From: a virus
Lineage: Duplodnaviria > Heunggongvirae > Uroviricota > Caudoviricetes
Strand: one strand, 5' to 3'
IMG/VR virus record: IMGVR_UViG_646311924_000019
Length of the DNA stretch: 47,189 nucleotides
Positions 30,140 to 47,189 of the stretch are shown piece after piece (position 1 is the stretch's first letter; each line of letters opens with the position of its first letter). The translations under genes and the position numbers were made by a program. The notes under the pieces are model-generated. The model had not been told where the DNA came from, did not search any database, and saw only the letters and a list, made by a program, of their open reading frames with translations.

Positions 30140-30565
30140 ATGGAATTACAGGACTGGCGAAAAGAACCTCGTAAAAACTATTCGAATGAATTCAAACTTC
30201 GTATGGTGGAACTGGCATCACAACCTGGAGCTTGTGTTGCACAGATTGCACGTGAAAATGGCGTCAATGATAATGTTATTTTCAAATGGCTCAGGCTCTG
30301 GCAGAACGAAGGGCGTGTTTCGCGGCGTCTTCCGGTAACGACCTCTTCTGACACTGGCGTTGAATTATTACCTGTAGAAATAACGCCGGATGAGCAGAAA
30401 GAACCTGTGGCGGCCATTGCGCCGTCTTTATCCACTTCCACTCAGACCAGAGTCAGTGCCAGTTCCTGCAAGGTGGAATTCCGTCACGGTAACATGACGC
30501 TGGAAAATCCATCGCCAGAGCTGCTCACGGTGTTGATCCGTGAACTGACCGGGAGGGGAAGATGA
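30140..30565 (+). CDS. IS66-family accessory protein TnpA
   Basis: 141-aa ORF, first gene of the IS66 three-gene layout. Confidence 0.85.
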   Translation: MELQDWRKEPRKNYSNEFKLRMVELASQPGACVAQIARENGVNDNVIFKWLRLWQNEGRVSRRLPVTTSSDTGVELLPVEITPDEQKEPVAAIAPSLSTSTQTRVSASSCKVEFRHGNMTLENPSPELLTVLIRELTGRGR

Positions 30566-30912
30566 TCTCACTCCCATCAGGTACCCGTATCTGGCTCGTT
30601 GCCGGCGTTACCGATATGCGTAAATCCTTCAACGGACTGGGAGAACAGGTACAACATGTGCTGAATGATAATCCCTTCTCCGGTCACCTGTTTATCTTCC
30701 GTGGCCGACGGGGTGACACCGTCAAAATTCTTTGGGCTGATGCTGATGGTCTGTGCCTGTTCACCAAACGCCTGGAGGAAGGCCAGTTTATCTGGCCTGC
30801 GGTACGTGACGGCAAGGTATCCATTACCCGCTCGCAACTGGCAATGCTCCTCGATAAGCTGGACTGGCGTCAGCCAAAAACATCCAGCCGTAACTCACTG
30901 ACAATGTTGTAA
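30562..30912 (+). CDS. IS66-family protein TnpB (Orf2)
   Basis: 116-aa ORF overlapping tnpA stop. Confidence 0.85.
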   Translation: MISLPSGTRIWLVAGVTDMRKSFNGLGEQVQHVLNDNPFSGHLFIFRGRRGDTVKILWADADGLCLFTKRLEEGQFIWPAVRDGKVSITRSQLAMLLDKLDWRQPKTSSRNSLTML

Positions 30913-30942
30913 AAAACTCCTGACCGCATTATAAAAACGGTC

Positions 30943-32556
30943 ATGAGTCAGAAATACCTCATTCGCATCGCAGAGCTGGAAAGGTTGCTCTCTGAGCAGG
31001 CTGAAGCCCTCCGTCAGAAAGACCAGCAACTGAGTCTGGTTGAAGAGACGGAAGCCTTCCTGCGCTCTGCACTGACACGTGCCGAAGAAAAGATCGAAGA
31101 AGATGAACGGGAAATAGAACATCTGCGGGCTCAGATAGAAAAACTGCGCCGGATGCTGTTCGGTACCCGTTCTGAAAAACTGCGTCGTGAAGTTGAACTG
31201 GCTGAGGCTCTGCTGAAACAACGTGAACAGGACAGCGATCGTTACAGTGGGCGGGAAGACGATCCTCAGGTTCCCCGCCAGTTGCGACAGTCGCGCCATC
31301 GTCGTCCGTTACCGGCACACCTTCCCCGTGAAATACACCGCCTGGAGCCAGAAGAAAGCTGTTGCCCGGAGTGTGGCGGTGAGCTGGATTATCTGGGAGA
31401 AGTCAGCGCTGAACAGCTGGAACTGGTGAGCAGTGCCCTGAAAGTGATCCGCACAGAACGGGTAAAAAAAGCCTGTACAAAATGTGACTGTATTGTTGAA
31501 GCACCGGCGCCGTCCCGCCCGATAGAGCGTGGTATCGCGGGCCCCGGATTACTTGCCCGCGTGTTAACGGGAAAATACTGCGAACATCTGCCACTGTATC
31601 GTCAGAGTGAAATCTTTGCCCGCCAGGGTGTCGAACTGAGCCGGGCCTTACTCTCCAACTGGGTTGACGCGTGCTGCCAGTTAATGACACCGGTGAATGA
31701 TGCCCTGTACCGTTATGTGATGAATACCCGCAAGCTTCACACTGACGACACACCGGTAAAGGTACTGGCACCGGGCCTGAAAAAGACGAAAACAGGGCGC
31801 ATCTGGACGTATGTCCGGGATGATCGCAATGCGGGTTCGTCATCTCCTCCGGCGGTCTGGTTCGCGTACTCATCGAACCGGCAGGGGAAACACCCGGAGC
31901 AACACCTCCGCCCCTTCCGGGGTATCCTGCAGGCGGATGCGTTCACAGGTTATGACAGGCTGTTCAGTGCAGAACGTGAAGGTAGTGCGCTGACAGAAGT
32001 TGCGTGCTGGGCTCATGCCCGGAGAAAAATCCACGATGTATACATCAGCAGCAAAAGTGCGACGGCAGAAGAAGCCCTGAAGCGAATCAGTGAACTGTAC
32101 GCCATCGAGGATGAAATACGGGGATTACCAGAATCAGAGCGTCTTGCAGCCAGGCAGCAGCGAAGCAAAGCGTTACTGACGTCGCTGCATGAATGGATGG
32201 TGGAGAAGAATGGCACGCTGTCGAAAAAATCCAGACTGGGCGAAGCGTTCAGCTATGTACTGAATCAGTGGGACGCCCTCTGTTATTACAGTGATGACGG
32301 TCTGGCGGAGGTGGACAATAACACAGCGGAAAGAGCGCTTCGTGCAGTCTGTCTCGGAAAGAAAAATTACGTGTTCTTCGGTAGCGATCACGGCGGCGAG
32401 CGTGGAGCACTGCTGTACGGGCTGAGCGGCACCTGCCGTCTGAACGGTATCGATCCGGAAGCGTATCTGCGCCATATTCTGAGCGTACTGCCGGAATGGC
32501 CCTCCAACCGTGTTGACGAACTCCTGCCATGGAACGTAGTACTCACCAATAAATAA
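30943..32556 (+). CDS. IS66-family transposase TnpC
   Basis: 537-aa ORF with N-terminal leucine zipper, CCPECGG zinc-finger motif and DDE region. Confidence 0.9.
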   Translation: MSQKYLIRIAELERLLSEQAEALRQKDQQLSLVEETEAFLRSALTRAEEKIEEDEREIEHLRAQIEKLRRMLFGTRSEKLRREVELAEALLKQREQDSDRYSGREDDPQVPRQLRQSRHRRPLPAHLPREIHRLEPEESCCPECGGELDYLGEVSAEQLELVSSALKVIRTERVKKACTKCDCIVEAPAPSRPIERGIAGPGLLARVLTGKYCEHLPLYRQSEIFARQGVELSRALLSNWVDACCQLMTPVNDALYRYVMNTRKLHTDDTPVKVLAPGLKKTKTGRIWTYVRDDRNAGSSSPPAVWFAYSSNRQGKHPEQHLRPFRGILQADAFTGYDRLFSAEREGSALTEVACWAHARRKIHDVYISSKSATAEEALKRISELYAIEDEIRGLPESERLAARQQRSKALLTSLHEWMVEKNGTLSKKSRLGEAFSYVLNQWDALCYYSDDGLAEVDNNTAERALRAVCLGKKNYVFFGSDHGGERGALLYGLSGTCRLNGIDPEAYLRHILSVLPEWPSNRVDELLPWNVVLTNK

Positions 32557-32761: not shown

Positions 32762-32838
32762 TGGCGCGTTGTAGTGGAGTCTAACCACTGACCGATTGCT
32801 TAGAAGGCAATTGCTCTGTCCGACTGAGCTAACAACGC
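32762..32838 (-). tRNA. tRNA-Arg (anticodon UCU)
   Basis: 77-nt cloverleaf folded by hand: acceptor GCGTTGT/ACAACGC, anticodon loop CTTCTAA, 3' CCA; unusual T-loop. Confidence 0.7.
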
Positions 32839-32851
32839 ATGATGCTGATAA

Positions 32852-32928
32852 TGGACCGCCATCGGGGACTTGAACCCCGCGCAGCCAGCTTCGAAGGCTG
32901 GCGCTCTGTCCCGATGAGCTAATAGCGG
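32852..32928 (-). tRNA. tRNA-Arg (anticodon UCG)
   Basis: 77-nt cloverleaf folded by hand: anticodon loop CTTCGAA, 3' CCA; acceptor stem begins with C1-G72, which is unusual. Confidence 0.6.
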
Positions 32929-32937
32929 TATGTAATA

Positions 32938-33013
32938 TGGTGGCCCTTGCTGGATTTGAACCAGCGACCTGGCGATTATGAGTCGCTCGCTCTCACCACT
33001 GAGCTAAAGGACC
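32938..33013 (-). tRNA. tRNA with CAU anticodon, Ile2-like (ileZ-type phage tRNA)
   Basis: 76 nt, closely resembles E. coli tRNA-Ile2 as recalled; anticodon loop CTCATAA, 3' CCA. Confidence 0.75.
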
Positions 33014-36569: not shown

Positions 36570-36647
36570 CGGATTCTCCGGTGACAGCAGGTGTCAGTTG
36601 TTCAGGCTGACTGCGCGAATTGTAAGGCAATACGCCGGAATGTACAA

Positions 36648-36673
36648 ACAGAAAACCCGTCAGTAAGACGGGC
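36648..36673 (-). terminator. Intrinsic terminator downstream of the YgiW-like gene
   Basis: Hairpin cccgtc/gacggg followed by a T-rich run on the minus strand. Confidence 0.5.
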
Positions 36674-36690
36674 TTAACAAGCAGGGGCGG

Positions 36691-37035
36691 TTACTTTAAT
36701 AATTTCAGTGCCTTTACATCAACTTCAACACTGCTCAGGTCTTTATCAATTTCACCCTCAATTCTTACTTTGTCTTTCGGAGAAACATTCTGCCCGGCCC
36801 ATACGCTGTCATCAATATCCGTGACAATTGTCCCGCTATTGTCACGAAACTCATAACGTTCATCACCCACTTTTTTAACGATGCTCCCTTCAAGGATAAC
36901 CCATGCATCATCCTTCAGTTCTTTTGCCTGCGCTACTGTTGAACGCTCTGCTTCTGGCCCCTGGAAACCACCCTGCTGTGCAAAAGCGCCAAAAGACACA
37001 CCGGAAATAAGTGCTGCAATCAATACCTTTTTCAT
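36691..37035 (-). CDS. YgiW/YdeI-family periplasmic OB-fold protein
   Basis: 114-aa ORF with signal peptide, close to E. coli YgiW as recalled; AGAGGA Shine-Dalgarno. Confidence 0.8.
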   Translation of the reverse strand: MKKVLIAALISGVSFGAFAQQGGFQGPEAERSTVAQAKELKDDAWVILEGSIVKKVGDERYEFRDNSGTIVTDIDDSVWAGQNVSPKDKVRIEGEIDKDLSSVEVDVKALKLLK

Positions 37036-37154
37036 TCATAGTCCTCTTTCAGAGATGAACATTCAAACAGCATTTTCAGTATGGTAAAGCGCGGGTGCGT
37101 TGAGGATGCCTGACACATCAGAGGTGGCGGGAGATTACTCCCCCGCCTGGTCTC

Positions 37155-37310
37155 TTACTTCTCAGATTCGTAGTCTACGAAGACAGCGACCTCCGTCTGA
37201 CCGGTTCGGATTCGCACCTCGCAGAGGTCTTTCCTCGTTACCAGTGCCGTCACTATGACGGTTAAACAGATGACGATCAGGGCGATTAACATCGCCTTTT
37301 GCTGCTTCAT
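37155..37310 (-). CDS. hok: Hok/Gef-family type I toxin (HokD/RelF-like)
   Basis: 51 aa MKQQKAMLIALIVICLTVIVTALVTRKDLCEVRIRTGQTEVAVF...; the track ORF 37155-37367 is an in-frame upstream extension. Confidence 0.85.
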   Translation of the reverse strand: MKQQKAMLIALIVICLTVIVTALVTRKDLCEVRIRTGQTEVAVFVDYESEK

Positions 37311-37600
37311 AGCCTGCTTCTCCTTGCCTTTCGGCACGTAAGAGGCTAACCTACATGTGTTCAGCATGGATTGAGCCTCAGATTAATGTTAAGCGTCTTG
37401 CAGGACGCGTAATGTTAACTGGGGCTTTTCTCTATCTGCCGTTGGTGTTCATGCCCGAGGCAGATAGCCTCAAGCACCCGCTGCAATTCTACTTAACTAT
37501 CCTTTTCCCGCAAACCGTTTTTATCCCCAGCGGCAAATCGAATACTCCACCAGCGCCACCGCCATCGCAATTCCTACCGTTGTGAATGCTTCAGGCCAGG

Positions 37601-38158
37601 TCATTGATTCACCTCCTGCGGCGGTTCTGGTAGCGACATCCAGTGGGTTGCTTGCCTAAGATCATTACCCGGACTAACTGCTATACCTCCGCGCCGGAAC
37701 GTGCCTCCGAGATAGCGTGCGGAATATATTAATGGCCCAGCCTCGCTATCGATATTCATCGAAATAAGCACGTTCTGGCTCTTTTCAGGCATTCGCTCAG
37801 TACAGCTTATCCAGCCATCCAGAGTTATCGGAGATCTGGTTGACGTTTCCGAGATTTCCCGAAAATTGTTGGTTGACGAATTCTTATTTTCCCGAAAGTT
37901 TCCGGCCTGAAGCATGGCGACGCGGCAGGCGTTCCAGCCATCAGCATATGTTTTAGTTACACCGTCGAGATGGCAGGTAAGCAAATCCATTTCATCAGGC
38001 ACTACCATTGCTATCGGCTCTGCTTCCAGTGATGCCAGCGCGATACGAAACACATTAGCCAGCAGGCTGTCTGAAGACTTGTTATCGTGCGCCGAGTCGC
38101 TCAGGAAGCCTGTGATGTATGATTTAATCTCCGCGCGTTCTCTGGTAATAGTGCTCAT
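37601..38158 (-). CDS. DUF551-like protein
   Basis: 185-aa ORF with C-terminal W...ERMPE...HWMSLPEPP pattern recalled for DUF551 proteins. Confidence 0.55.
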   Translation of the reverse strand: MSTITRERAEIKSYITGFLSDSAHDNKSSDSLLANVFRIALASLEAEPIAMVVPDEMDLLTCHLDGVTKTYADGWNACRVAMLQAGNFRENKNSSTNNFREISETSTRSPITLDGWISCTERMPEKSQNVLISMNIDSEAGPLIYSARYLGGTFRRGGIAVSPGNDLRQATHWMSLPEPPQEVNQ

Positions 38159-44805: not shown

Positions 44806-44863
44806 TTTCTGGTGACGTTTGGCGGTATCAGTTTTACTCCGTGGCTGCTCTGCCGCCCTTTTT
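44806..44863 (+). ncRNA. dicF: DicF small RNA
   Basis: tttctggtgacgtttggcggtatcagttttactccgtggctgctctgccgcccttttt matches the DicF sRNA as recalled (one mismatch), including its terminator. Confidence 0.8.
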
Positions 44864-45975: not shown

Positions 45976-46866
45976 TCAGGCTGCCAGATCATCGTTTCCG
46001 ATGGAAGCATAATAAGCTTTTTCTGCTTCTGCCGGAGGAGTATGGCCCAGCCTTCCCAGCAATCGTCGATTGTTATACCAGTCCACCCACGTTAGTGTGG
46101 CCAGTTCCACTTCTGCACGGTTTTTCCAGCTCTTACGGTGTATTACCTCCGCTTTGTAAAGACCATTGATGCTCTCAGCCATCGCGTTGTCATACGAGTC
46201 GCCTGTACTCCCTGTTGATGCCAGTAATCCGGCTTCTTTTAGTCGCTCCGTATAGGCCAGTGACACATACTGAGAGCCTTTATCGCTGTGATGGATGGTG
46301 CCAGACGGACGACGGGCCCACAACGCCTGCTCCAGCGCATCCAGCACGAATGTCGTTTCCATAGACGATGAGACCCGCCACCCCACGATGTATCCGGCAA
46401 ACACATCAATGATAAACGCCACATAGACGAAGCCCTGCCATGTGCTGACGTAAGTAAAATCAGCCACCCACAGCTGGTCAGGTCGTTCTGCCACGAACTG
46501 ACGGTTTACGCGGTCGCCTGCGGCAACGGCTTTCCGGCTGATGGTCGTACGGACCTTTTTACCCCGGAGAACACCGGCAAGTCCCATAACCGCCATGAGA
46601 CGTGCCACTGTACATCTGGCCACCCTGATTCCTTCCCGTAACAACTGACGCCAGACTTTACGCACACCGTACACCTGATGATTTTCATCGTATACGCGCT
46701 GTATCTCTCTCTTCAGCCAGTCGTCGTGCTGCGCACGGGCACTGCGTTTATCCGGATGATGTCGCTGTTGCTGACAATGGTAATACGTTGACGGGGCAAT
46801 ATGCAGTTCGCTGCATACCGGTCCGACCCCGTACTGCTCACGCAGCTTATCCAGCAGTGGCATCAT
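45976..46866 (-). CDS. IS3-family transposase OrfB (DDE catalytic domain)
   Basis: 296-aa ORF in the -1 frame relative to orfA. Confidence 0.85.
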
Positions 46867-47189
46867 TTTTTCCAGAGGCGGTCGAACTCCGCCTTCGCAA
46901 AATAAGCGGAAGCCTGGCGAAGGATATCGTTACTGCGGCGCAGTTCACGATTTTCACGTTCCAGCTCTTTCAGACGCTGACGTTCAGCGCTGGTGAGCCC
47001 ACCATCACCGCCCCCGGTATCCCGCTCATGCTGGCGAACCCAGACACGCAGAGTCTCCGGCGTACAGCCAATCTTTGGGGCAATGGAACAAATTGCCGCC
47101 CACTGTGAGTCATATTCATCCTGACTTTCCAGAACCATACGAATCGCCCGCTGACGGACTTCGGGGGAAAAACGAGTATTTTTAGTCAT
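46863..47189 (-). CDS. IS3-family transposase OrfA (HTH, leucine zipper)
   Basis: 108-aa [18 protein letters not shown]...; A6 run at the orfA/orfB overlap suggests a -1 frameshift to make OrfAB. Confidence 0.85.

What the first reader, a model, noticed from the sequence alone, without database searches (positions are those of the whole stretch)
37155..37400. hok-type type I toxin in the nin region; antisense partner not yet located
A 51-aa Hok/Gef-family toxin is clear. Such genes normally have an overlapping antisense Sok-like RNA and a long structured leader; these should lie in about 37300-37600 but I could not place them by eye.
Basis: established knowledge. Interest (0 to 1): 0.45.

Follow-up and report, generated by a model that had tools for sequence, protein, structure and literature searches.

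The report
Known hokW/sokW toxin-antitoxin locus, intact

Summary
The 51-aa Hok/Gef ORF is real (37155-37310, minus strand; Pfam E=4e-23).

- **mok frame:** in frame with hok, 70 aa, 37155-37367.
- **Leader:** 175 nt, 37305-37479, Rfam RF01794 at 113.5 bits.
- **Long-range closure:** the mRNA 5' end (tac, 37479-37468) pairs with the 3' fbi element (37105-37093).
- **Antisense Sok RNA:** 37359-37429 (+), promoter TTGCCT-17-TAACCT, with a long terminator hairpin.

The transcribed region differs at two bases from hokW/mokW/sokW of Stx2 phage 933W, where sokW is annotated at the matching position, and the proteins are identical. In Sakai prophage Sp5, Takada et al. 2021 showed HokW toxicity, sokW antitoxin activity and dependence on this same -10 box. 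Their Northern probes match the window 30/30.

The locus lies in the nin-like region of an IS-ridden Qin-like lambdoid prophage of O111 STEC. K-12 hokD is its 5'-truncated counterpart.

The Rfam "sok" model matches the hok-sense strand, so it marks the leader, not the antitoxin.

Verdict: observation confirmed, interpretation supported, already known, low interest. Still open: the mRNA 3' end and an 18-nt extension of the Sok hairpin.

The parts
37155..37310 (-). hok (hokW) toxin CDS, 51 aa
   Evidence: ORF list. Pfam HOK_GEF E=4.3e-23. No differences from 933W hokW in the CDS. RefSeq WP_000813258.1.
37155..37367 (-). mok (mokW) reading frame, 70 aa. It is in frame with hok, so it is an N-terminally extended Hok as in mokC/hokC.
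   Evidence: ORF list. Same coordinates relative to mokW in 933W. K-12 mokC and hokC share a stop in the same way.
37305..37479 (-). hok mRNA 5' leader, from the inferred +1 G at 37479 to the hok AUG. This is the match to Rfam RF01794, which is labelled 'sok' but lies on the hok-sense strand.
   Evidence: 113.5 bits against a gathering score of 59, E=3.5e-25, model positions 1-157 of 157. The same strand relation holds in K-12 hokC/hokB and for all 39 RF01794 matches, in 37 relatives.
37486..37513 (-). Inferred hok/mok promoter: -35 TTGCGG (37513-37508), 16-nt spacer, -10 TAGAAT (37491-37486), six nt before +1.
   Evidence: Read from the sequence. It is colinear with the TATAAT box of K-12 hokC. 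It is below the threshold of the consensus scan. Inferred, not shown.
37468..37479 (-). tac element (the mRNA 5' end, GGGUGCUUGAGG)
   Evidence: It pairs with fbi in the MFE and centroid folds. Conserved in relatives with U-A, C-G and U-G variation at pair 4.
37421..37427 (-). ucb, the anti-SD box (AAGCCCC). It pairs with the mok SD in the full-length fold and with tac in the Rfam (open) fold.
   Evidence: Fold. Rfam consensus structure. Names of the elements taken from PMC9841398.
37375..37379 (-). mok Shine-Dalgarno (GAGGC), eight nt before the mok AUG at 37367-37365
   Evidence: Sequence. Aligned with the GAGG of all relatives.
37342..37348 (-). dcb box (UAGCCUC), partner of the mok SD in the open fold. 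On the other strand it overlaps the Sok -10 region.
   Evidence: Third hairpin of the Rfam consensus structure. Conserved in all relatives.
37324..37352 (+). Sok (sokW) promoter: -35 TTGCCT (37324-37329), 17-nt spacer, -10 TAACCT (37347-37352)
   Evidence: Sequence. Primer YO-421 of Takada et al. changes exactly this hexamer (TAACCT to GAGCCG) to make the 'pro-less' construct that loses antitoxin activity. The scan misses it because the -10 matches only 3 of 6 positions.
37359..37429 (+). Sok (sokW) antisense antitoxin RNA, about 71 nt. It has a 14-nt single-stranded 5' tail (37359-37372) complementary to the mok start region.
   Evidence: Colinear with misc_RNA sokW 58664-58734 of NC_000924.1. 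The start G aligns with the K-12 sokC start. Fold -30 kcal/mol, z = -5.03. Northern probe YO-592 for sokW matches 37359-37388 exactly.
37373..37427 (+). Sok terminator hairpin followed by a U-run. Its apical 18 nt (37393-37410) are an extension that hokC, hokB and R1-type loci lack.
   Evidence: Fold. Consensus hairpin in 25 distinct relatives: 4 pairs with compensatory changes and a U-G pair in 25 of 25 that only forms on the Sok strand. The extension is shared by a hokW/hokD-type subfamily with compensatory changes in L027 and L028.
37126..37147 (-). 3' UTR stem-loop (GGCGGGGGAG-UAAU-CUCCCGCC). It is the likely protective hairpin at the 3' end of the processed mRNA.
   Evidence: Folds. Role inferred from R1 (PMC9841398). 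The first base, 37147, is G here and A in 933W/Sp5, which adds one base pair.
37106..37121 (-). 3' UTR arm of a second long-range helix that pairs with the mok start and Sok-target region (37367-37355)
   Evidence: MFE and centroid folds. The equivalent duplex is predicted in 17 of 17 distinct relatives examined, with quite different sequences (-12 to -22 kcal/mol against -6 to -9 for shuffles; in 16 of the 17 at most 2 of 100 shuffles reached the observed energy, in L040 10 did).
37093..37105 (-). fbi element (CCUCAACGCACCC), complementary to tac with one bulged C
   Evidence: It lies 45-56 nt after the hok stop in all 32 relatives used in the control.
36644..37619 (-). 976-bp cassette shared with phage 933W. 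It holds the hok promoter, hokW/mokW/sokW, a YgiW/YdeI-like OB-fold gene (36691-37035) and a terminator-like hairpin (36675-36653).
   Evidence: blastn gives 97.1% over 976 bp with L004. Pfam BOF E=1.9e-33. Terminator scan.

Best explanation
This is an intact copy of the hokW-mokW-sokW type I toxin-antitoxin module. It works as follows.

1. A weak promoter (-10 at 37491-37486) produces an mRNA of about 390 nt that starts at 37479.
2. The full-length mRNA is closed. Its 5' end (tac) pairs with fbi near the 3' end. The mok start region pairs with the 3' UTR just upstream of fbi. The mok SD pairs with the ucb box. In this form the mRNA is neither translated nor bound by Sok.
3. Slow 3' trimming back to the stem-loop at 37147-37126 removes fbi. 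tac then pairs with ucb, which is the fold modelled by Rfam. The mok SD and start become available. Translation of mok, which is in frame here, allows translation of hok.
4. A stronger promoter on the other strand (TTGCCT-17-TAACCT) produces the unstable 71-nt Sok RNA (37359-37429). Its 5' tail pairs with the mok start region, blocks mok and therefore hok translation, and marks the duplex for RNase III.
5. When Sok transcription stops, Sok decays. The stable mRNA is translated, and the 51-aa peptide inserts into the inner membrane and kills the cell or helps lyse it.

Shown here by computation: the ORFs, the Pfam and Rfam matches, the folds, conservation and covariation of the helices, and the near-identity to 933W. 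Shown in the literature for the Sp5 copy: HokW toxicity, inner-membrane location, sokW antitoxin activity from this promoter, partial dependence on RNase III and Hfq, loss of sokW and appearance of HokW after prophage induction, and a twofold effect on phage release. Inferred from plasmid R1: 3' processing, refolding, and mok-hok translational coupling.
For: - **Toxin and leader:** Pfam HOK_GEF E=4e-23. Rfam RF01794 113.5 bits over the full model.
- **Identity to the named locus:** 98.8% identity over 481 nt to hokW/mokW/sokW of 933W. There are no differences in the CDS and only two in the transcribed region, at 37402 in a loop and at 37147 at a stem base.
- **Position of Sok:** the annotated sokW maps to 37359-37429. 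The start G is the same as in K-12 sokC.
- **Folds:** Sok z = -5.03. Full-length mRNA z = -7.65, with the tac-fbi helix in both the MFE and centroid structures.
- **tac-fbi in relatives:** a complement sits at a fixed distance after the stop in the window copy and 32 relatives (33 loci). Mean energy is -21.8 against -14.6 +/- 2.5 kcal/mol for shuffles, and 106 of 3300 shuffles reached the observed value. The six inner pairs form in 100% of 19 distinct sequences, with a U-A/C-G/U-G pair.
- **Second long-range helix:** it varies in sequence among subfamilies but is predicted in all loci examined.
- **Sok hairpin:** conserved with 4 compensatory pairs and a U-G pair found in all 25 sequences that forms only on the Sok strand.
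- **Experiment:** Takada et al. 2021, PMC8621323. Their probes and primers match the window exactly, and their promoter-less mutant alters the TAACCT found here at 37347-37352.
- **Canonical mechanism and element names:** PMC9841398.
Against: - There are no transcript data for this strain. The Sok ends are transferred by homology from an annotation.
- The consensus promoter scan reports neither promoter. The Sok -10 matches only 3 of 6 consensus positions.
- Thermodynamic folding of 3'-truncated mRNAs did not show the expected opening of the mok SD and Sok target. Pairing probabilities were 0.48-0.52 for the Sok-tail target and 0.54-0.70 for the mok SD-AUG stretch across all 3' ends tried, with no drop on truncation.
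- No intrinsic terminator follows fbi in this allele, so the true 3' end of the full-length mRNA is unknown.
- Takada et al. found RNase III and Hfq only partly required, and left open whether the shorter hokW RNAs are the processed form.
- The host prophage is defective: IS1203 truncates exo and ISEc47 sits before the lysis genes. The 'phage release' role shown for Sp5 may therefore not apply here.
- The anchor used to align fbi was chosen from its complementarity to tac, so the pair count is partly circular.
Confidence: 0.9

Rival explanations
1. The locus is a decayed, non-functional hok remnant, like most chromosomal hok loci of E. coli K-12, and only the ORF survives.
For: Many chromosomal hok loci are inactivated. 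K-12 hokC has IS186 20 bp after its stop, which removes fbi (L018 finds only a spurious complement). K-12 hokD lacks the promoter, tac, mok and sok. The surrounding prophage is itself degraded.
Against: Every element is present and colinear with the functional Sp5/933W locus. The two differences in the transcribed region lie in a hairpin loop and at a stem base, where the change adds a pair. The Rfam score is as high as for intact relatives. tac-fbi is intact.
Confidence: 0.04
2. The module is as described, but here its role is addiction. It stabilises the defective prophage, or just its own 1-kb cassette, by killing cells that lose it (post-segregational killing). It does not help lysis.
For: This is the classical role of R1 hok/sok. 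The prophage has lost an intact exonuclease and carries two IS elements, so induction and release are doubtful. The cassette moves as a unit between unrelated positions in lambdoid phages. A survey preprint reports that hok genes are enriched fourfold in prophages.
Against: Chromosomal hokA, hokB and hokC did not mediate post-segregational killing in earlier work, as cited. Deleting hokW-sokW from Sp5 had no growth effect without induction. Nothing in the sequence separates this role from the others.
Confidence: 0.3
3. The module is as described, and its role is the one shown for Sp5. Prophage induction shuts off Sok, and HokW damages the inner membrane ahead of holin and endolysin, so cells lyse earlier and release more phage.
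For: Direct experiments on the 98.8%-identical locus: sokW disappears after mitomycin C, HokW appears about 1 h before R endolysin in a RecA-dependent way, and phage yield halves in the deletion. The window prophage keeps its holin and lysozyme genes.
Against: The effect in Sp5 is modest, about twofold. The prophage here is IS-disrupted and probably cannot make particles on its own. The locus also sits in a different transcriptional neighbourhood, nin-like rather than beyond the late genes as in 933W.
Confidence: 0.35
4. The module is as described, and its role is defence against superinfecting phages. Host transcription shut-off by an infecting phage depletes Sok and triggers Hok (abortive infection).
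For: R1 hok/sok on a high-copy plasmid reduced T4 plating by 42% and plaque size by about 85%, as cited. Prophages often carry defence genes.
Against: The hok survey found no enrichment next to known defence systems. There are no data for hokW. The effect reported for R1 is weak.
Confidence: 0.15

Closest known systems
hokW-mokW-sokW of Stx2 phages 933W (NC_000924.1) and VT2-Sakai/Sp5
   Same: 98.8% nucleotide identity over 481 nt. The HokW and MokW proteins, the Sok promoter and the Sok 5' tail are identical. The 18-nt hairpin extension and the downstream YgiW-like gene are the same. The 976-bp cassette is shared at 97%.
   Different: Two substitutions in the transcribed region (37402, 37147) and two in the hok promoter spacer regions (37499, 37482). 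The genome position differs: nin-like region of a Qin-like, DicF/DicB-bearing defective prophage here, against beyond the late genes and next to the ea22/ant genes in 933W.
hokD (relF) of the E. coli K-12 Qin prophage
   Same: Same prophage type and same relative position, upstream of the DUF968 gene ydfU. 93.8% identity from the hok SD through fbi. The proteins differ only at the C-terminus.
   Different: In hokD the promoter, tac, ucb, mok and Sok have been replaced by relBE. Homology begins at the hok SD. hokD has a canonical terminator right after fbi, which the window lacks.
hokC (gef)-mokC-sokC of the E. coli chromosome
   Same: mok is in frame with hok. The leader aligns throughout. Sok starts at the same G (GUUCAGCAU...) and has the same promoter layout.
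   Different: hokC lacks the 18-nt hairpin extension. The protein is about 80% identical. The K-12 copy is cut off from fbi by IS186.
hok-mok-sok of plasmid R1, the paradigm
   Same: Same set of parts (tac, fbi, ucb, dcb, mok, Sok) and the same presumed mechanism. The Rfam leader model fits.
   Different: The proteins are only 44% identical. From my own knowledge, not tested here, R1 mok is in a different frame from hok, as in K-12 mokB/hokB whose ends differ. R1 lacks the hairpin extension. R1 is plasmid-borne and has a proven post-segregational killing role.

Membership tests
[quoted passage not shown] | Small (about 50 aa) hydrophobic Hok/Gef toxin ORF | tested here: met
   Pfam PF01848 E=4.3e-23, model positions 1-42 of 42.
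[quoted passage not shown] | Overlapping upstream mok reading frame with its own SD | tested here: met
   70-codon ORF 37155-37367 with GAGGC eight nt before the AUG. Translational coupling itself was not tested.
[quoted passage not shown] | Structured hok mRNA leader (tac stem, SD-mok hairpins) | tested here: met
   Rfam RF01794 113.5 bits against a gathering score of 59 over the whole model, on the hok-sense strand.
[quoted passage not shown] | Long-range tac-fbi pairing that closes the full-length mRNA | tested here: met
   12 bp with one bulge in the MFE and centroid folds, z = -7.65. Conserved position and one covarying pair in relatives. A second long-range helix varies in sequence among subfamilies but is retained.
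[quoted passage not shown] | Cis-encoded antisense Sok RNA with its own promoter, a single-stranded 5' tail and a terminator hairpin, covering the mok start region | tested here: met
   Maps to annotated sokW. Fold z = -5.03. Hairpin covariation and strand-specific G-U pairs. The promoter is identical to the experimentally validated one. Transcription in this strain has not been observed.
[quoted passage not shown] | 3' processing of the mRNA, followed by refolding to a translatable, Sok-accessible form | tested here: inconclusive
   MFE and partition-function folds of truncated mRNAs did not show opening of the mok SD or the Sok target. The Rfam open fold does fit the leader. This needs experiment.
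[quoted passage not shown] | Toxicity of Hok and neutralisation by Sok | not testable with these tools
   Shown for the Sp5 copy, whose protein and Sok promoter are identical (PMC8621323).
hokW-sokW (933W/Sp5 type) specifically | Near-identity of toxin, mok, Sok and leader, including the 18-nt hairpin extension, and linkage to the YgiW-like gene | tested here: met
   98.8% over 481 nt, no CDS differences, cassette 36644-37619 shared.

The most novel reading that the evidence does not exclude
The hokW/hokD-type loci form a structural subfamily in which the Sok terminator hairpin carries an 18-nt apical extension. The same extension appears in the ucb/SD-mok hairpin of the mRNA. Compensatory changes preserve it in Kluyvera and another enterobacterial genome, so it may tune Sok stability or the partial RNase III and Hfq dependence seen for sokW. 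In the 933W-type allele, hokW also has no terminator of its own and would be co-transcribed with the YgiW-like stress gene as a single moron. That would make the mRNA 3' end, and so fbi release, depend on processing of a longer transcript.
Probability: 0.2. Interest if true: 0.3.

Novelty: already known. Interest (0 to 1): 0.1.

Why it matters
It adds little to biology. The locus was annotated in phage 933W and tested experimentally in 2021. Three practical points follow.

- RefSeq annotates only the Hok CDS here. The antitoxin, mok and the mRNA elements can now be placed to the base.
- The Rfam 'sok' hit lies on the toxin's strand and must not be read as the antitoxin's position.
- This copy shows the intact ancestor of K-12 hokD in its original place in a Qin-like prophage. 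It also shows that the hokW plus YgiW-like cassette moves between lambdoid phages.

Tried and rejected
- **Promoter and terminator scan over 36950-37700:** it found nothing. I did not take this as evidence of absence, because the experimentally validated sokW -10 (TAACCT) fails the scan's rule of 4 matches in 6.
- **Folding of 3'-truncated mRNAs:** meant to show the closed-to-open switch. Pairing probabilities of the mok SD and the Sok target hardly changed, so the result is uninformative.
- **Naming of the second helix:** I first called the helix between the mok start region and the 3' UTR 'ucb/dcb'. PMC9841398 shows that ucb is the anti-SD box near 37421-37427 and dcb is near 37342-37348. 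The long-range helix is therefore reported separately.
- **Outer half of tac-fbi (pairs 7-12):** it could not be counted with the count of structure pairs, because one subfamily has a bulge and MAFFT inserted no gap. Only the six inner pairs were counted.
- **Script:** it stopped after 17 distinct loci because a motif was missing in the next one. Only those 17 are used.
- **Early coordinates in notebook entry 1:** some were off. The Sok promoter boxes were one base out, the 933W differences were given as 37422/37127, and the 18-nt extension as 37405-37422. The values in this report were re-derived and from the column numbers: differences at 37402 and 37147, extension at 37393-37410.
- **Decayed-locus reading:** rejected, as set out under the rival explanations.
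- **Not run:** structure prediction, deep protein homology searches and a self-built covariance model, because the identification was already unambiguous.

Full report
**Observation**

The region holds an ATG-started ORF of 51 codons at 37155-37310 on the minus strand. It matches the Pfam Hok/Gef model end to end with E=4.3e-23. An in-frame upstream ATG at 37367 gives a 70-codon frame. The 621 bases around it are 100% identical to chromosomal sequence in many E. coli O111 and related STEC genomes, where RefSeq annotates only a 'Hok/Gef family protein'.

**Context**

The last 22 kb of the window are 100% identical to a prophage of strain 2015C-3101. Read on the minus strand, the order is:

- a cro-like regulator and a YdaT-family gene;
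- replication genes, then DUF1627, DUF4014 and DUF551;
- hok and a YgiW/YdeI-like OB-fold gene;
- DUF968, RusA and DUF1133;
- a helix-turn-helix protein in the position where K-12 Qin has its putative Q antiterminator ydfT;
- tRNA Ile-Arg-Arg, an ISEc47 insertion, nanS-like esterase, holin and lysozyme.

On the other side lie DicF, dicB, an exonuclease truncated by IS1203, and the window end. 'Nin region' is therefore a fair description. The prophage is a defective, Qin-like lambdoid element.

**Leader and a strand pitfall**

Rfam family RF01794 ('sok antitoxin') matches 37305-37479 at 113.5 bits against a gathering score of 59, over the whole model. The match is on the minus strand, which is the strand of hok, and it ends at the hok AUG. 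I checked whether this is a general property of the model.

- In K-12, the model hits the hokC and hokB loci on the hok-sense strand, while RefSeq places sokC and sokB on the opposite strand.
- In relatives from other genomes, all 39 RF01794 matches (in 37 loci, two of which carry a second hok locus) are on the hok-sense strand.

The model therefore describes the hok mRNA leader in its open, tac/ucb-paired fold. The hit gives the leader and the mRNA 5' end (G at 37479), not the antitoxin.

**Identification**

A search of phage records shows 98.8% identity over 481 nt to many Stx-converting phages. These include 933W, whose record annotates mokW, hokW and a misc_RNA 'SokW antisense RNA', and VT2-Sakai (Sp5). 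The alignment to 933W has no gaps.

- There are no differences in the CDS.
- Two differences lie in the transcribed region: 37402, in a hairpin loop, and 37147, the first base of the 3' stem-loop, where the window's G adds a pair.
- Two further differences lie in spacer positions of the hok promoter.

Transferring the 933W feature places Sok at 37359-37429 on the plus strand. That start G is also the start of K-12 sokC (GUUCAGCAU...). Upstream are TTGCCT (37324-37329), a 17-nt spacer and TAACCT (37347-37352).

**Experimental support from the literature**

Takada et al. 2021 (PMC8621323) studied the Sp5 copy. They reported the following.

- HokW is toxic and locates to the inner membrane.
- sokW expressed from its own promoter neutralises it, also in trans.
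- A 'promoter-less' mutant loses protection.
- RNase III and Hfq contribute only partly.
- After mitomycin C, sokW RNA vanishes and HokW appears about an hour before the endolysin, in a RecA-dependent way.
- Deleting the locus halves phage release.

Their oligonucleotides match the window exactly. The sokW probe covers 37359-37388 and the hokW probe covers 37322-37351. The fragment that supplies sokW in trans corresponds to 37307-37461. The mutagenic primer changes exactly the TAACCT at 37347-37352. The consensus promoter scan misses this box, which shows the limit of that scan rather than the absence of a promoter.

**Folds**

The 71-nt Sok folds into a 14-nt free 5' tail plus one long hairpin and a U-run (-30 kcal/mol, z = -5.03). 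The 390-nt mRNA (37479 to 37090) folds at -162.6 kcal/mol (z = -7.65). In both the MFE and centroid structures:

- the 5' end 37479-37468 pairs with 37093-37105 (tac-fbi, 12 bp and one bulged C);
- the mok start region 37367-37355 pairs with the 3' UTR at 37121-37109;
- the mok SD pairs with the GCCCC box (ucb) (element names from PMC9841398).

A stem-loop at 37147-37126 corresponds to the hairpin that protects the processed R1 mRNA.

**Test in relatives**

I fetched 47 loci encoding relatives from species-representative genomes: Escherichia, Shigella, Kluyvera, Citrobacter, Photorhabdus, Erwinia, Pantoea and others.

- **tac-fbi position and energy.** In all 32 relatives used in the control, and in the window copy, the first 14 nt of the Rfam-defined leader find their best complement 45-56 nt after the hok stop. 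Over these 33 loci mean energy is -21.8 against -14.6 +/- 2.5 kcal/mol for shuffled 3' regions, and 106 of 3300 shuffles reached the observed value.
- **tac-fbi pairs.** The six inner pairs form in 100% of 19 distinct sequences. Pair 4 is U-A in 10, C-G in 7 and U-G in 2. The anchor for this alignment was chosen from the complement, so the count is partly circular.
- **Second long-range helix.** It is predicted in all 17 distinct loci examined, although the sequences differ strongly between the hokW, hokC and Photorhabdus types (-12 to -22 against -6 to -9 kcal/mol for shuffles; in 16 of the 17 at most 2 of 100 shuffles reached the observed energy, in L040 10 did).
- **Sok hairpin.** The Sok-strand hairpin is conserved in 25 distinct sequences, with four compensatory pairs. 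One U-G pair is present in all 25. It would be a C-A mismatch on the mRNA strand, which suggests selection on the antisense RNA itself.

K-12 hokC (fbi removed by IS186) and K-12 hokD (leader replaced by relBE) show what decayed loci look like. The window copy has none of these defects.

**What is not shown**

- No transcript data exist for this strain.
- Folding of truncated mRNAs did not reproduce the expected opening of the mok SD and the Sok target.
- No intrinsic terminator follows fbi in this allele, nor in 933W. The first terminator-like site on the minus strand is 36675-36653, after the YgiW-like gene. By contrast, hokD and several relatives have a hairpin and T-run directly after fbi.
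- The Sok hairpin carries an 18-nt apical extension (37393-37410) that hokC, hokB and R1-type loci lack. A hokW/hokD-type subfamily shares it, and it remains a hairpin through compensatory changes in two divergent members. Its function is unknown.

**Mobility and relation to hokD**

The window and 933W share 976 bp (36644-37619, 97%). This stretch comprises the hok promoter, the module, the YgiW-like gene and the terminator. In 933W the cassette lies beyond the late genes, next to the ea22/ant genes. Here it lies in the nin-like region. K-12 Qin carries hokD at the same relative position as here, upstream of the DUF968 gene ydfU. Homology begins only at the hok SD. The window therefore shows the intact form of the K-12 remnant.

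**Role**

The mechanism is well supported, but the biological role here is not. Three roles are compatible with the sequence: lysis helper on induction (shown for Sp5), addiction of the prophage or cassette, and abortive infection. A recent survey finds hok genes enriched fourfold in prophages but not next to defence systems. Because this prophage is IS-disrupted, I rate the lysis-helper and addiction roles about equally likely.

**Verdict**

The 'missing' antisense partner is sokW at 37359-37429 (+), and the locus is intact. It is already known, so interest is low.

Noticed in passing
window 37305-37479 (-); L002, L003, L006-L051: Rfam RF01794, labelled 'sok antitoxin', matches the hok-sense strand in every case examined and ends at the hok AUG. 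It models the hok mRNA leader, so its hits have the opposite strand to the real antitoxin (RefSeq sokC and sokB lie on the other strand).
   Followed up: yes
L005 9048-9289 (K-12 Qin hokD) against window 37083-37324: K-12 hokD occupies the same prophage position, upstream of DUF968/ydfU. It is a 5'-truncated version of this locus: homology starts at the hok SD, and relBE replaces the promoter, tac, mok and Sok.
   Followed up: yes
window 36644-37619: A 976-bp cassette is shared at 97% with phage 933W, where it sits at a different genome position. It holds the hok promoter, hokW/sokW, a YgiW/YdeI-like OB-fold gene at 36691-37035 and a terminator-like hairpin at 36675-36653. This is a moron-like unit.
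   Followed up: partly
window 37036-37092: No intrinsic terminator lies between fbi and the YgiW-like gene, unlike K-12 hokD and several relatives, which have a GC hairpin and T-run right after fbi. The 3' end of the hokW mRNA is therefore unclear, and read-through into the next gene is possible.
   Followed up: partly
window 37393-37410: An 18-nt apical extension of the Sok terminator hairpin, mirrored in the mRNA, is specific to hokW/hokD-type loci. It is maintained as a hairpin by compensatory changes in L027 and L028. Its function is unknown.
   Followed up: partly
window 44807-44858 (+): A full-length DicF sRNA match (75 bits) lies next to dicB. RefSeq does not annotate it in the matching genomes. 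It marks the prophage as Qin-like.
   Followed up: no
window 29280-29452 (-): An STnc100 sRNA family match (104.7 bits) lies between the esterase and TerB-like genes of the prophage late-regulatory region.
   Followed up: no
window 30140-32556, 45977-47189 and 32765-33013: An ISEc47 (IS66 family) insertion lies next to the prophage tRNA Ile-Arg-Arg cluster. An IS1203 copy, with its ALIL frameshift pseudoknot at 46792-46908, truncates the exonuclease gene. The prophage is defective.
   Followed up: partly
L047 250-397 and L049 362-389: In Erwinia sp. CGal63 and Kalamiella sp., CRISPR-DR4 repeats lie about 95 nt upstream of the hok mRNA start. A hok/sok locus there sits directly beside a CRISPR array.
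   Followed up: no
L017 (275 bp) and L025 (431 bp): Very short contigs in assemblies labelled Acinetobacter idrijaensis and Xanthomonas pisi encode E. coli-type Hok at 91-100% identity. This is probably contamination.
   Followed up: no
L032 556-703 and 1185-1333; L029-L045: Photorhabdus genomes carry many hok loci, some in tandem about 630 bp apart. Their tac/fbi pair is GGGCGC/GCGCCC, which supplies the covariation seen in the test.
   Followed up: partly
L010 (E. coli ECMA0423, 1947610-1949162): This locus is 88.7% identical to the window locus over 441 nt, yet it gave no Rfam leader hit at the gathering threshold. It may be a damaged leader.
   Followed up: no
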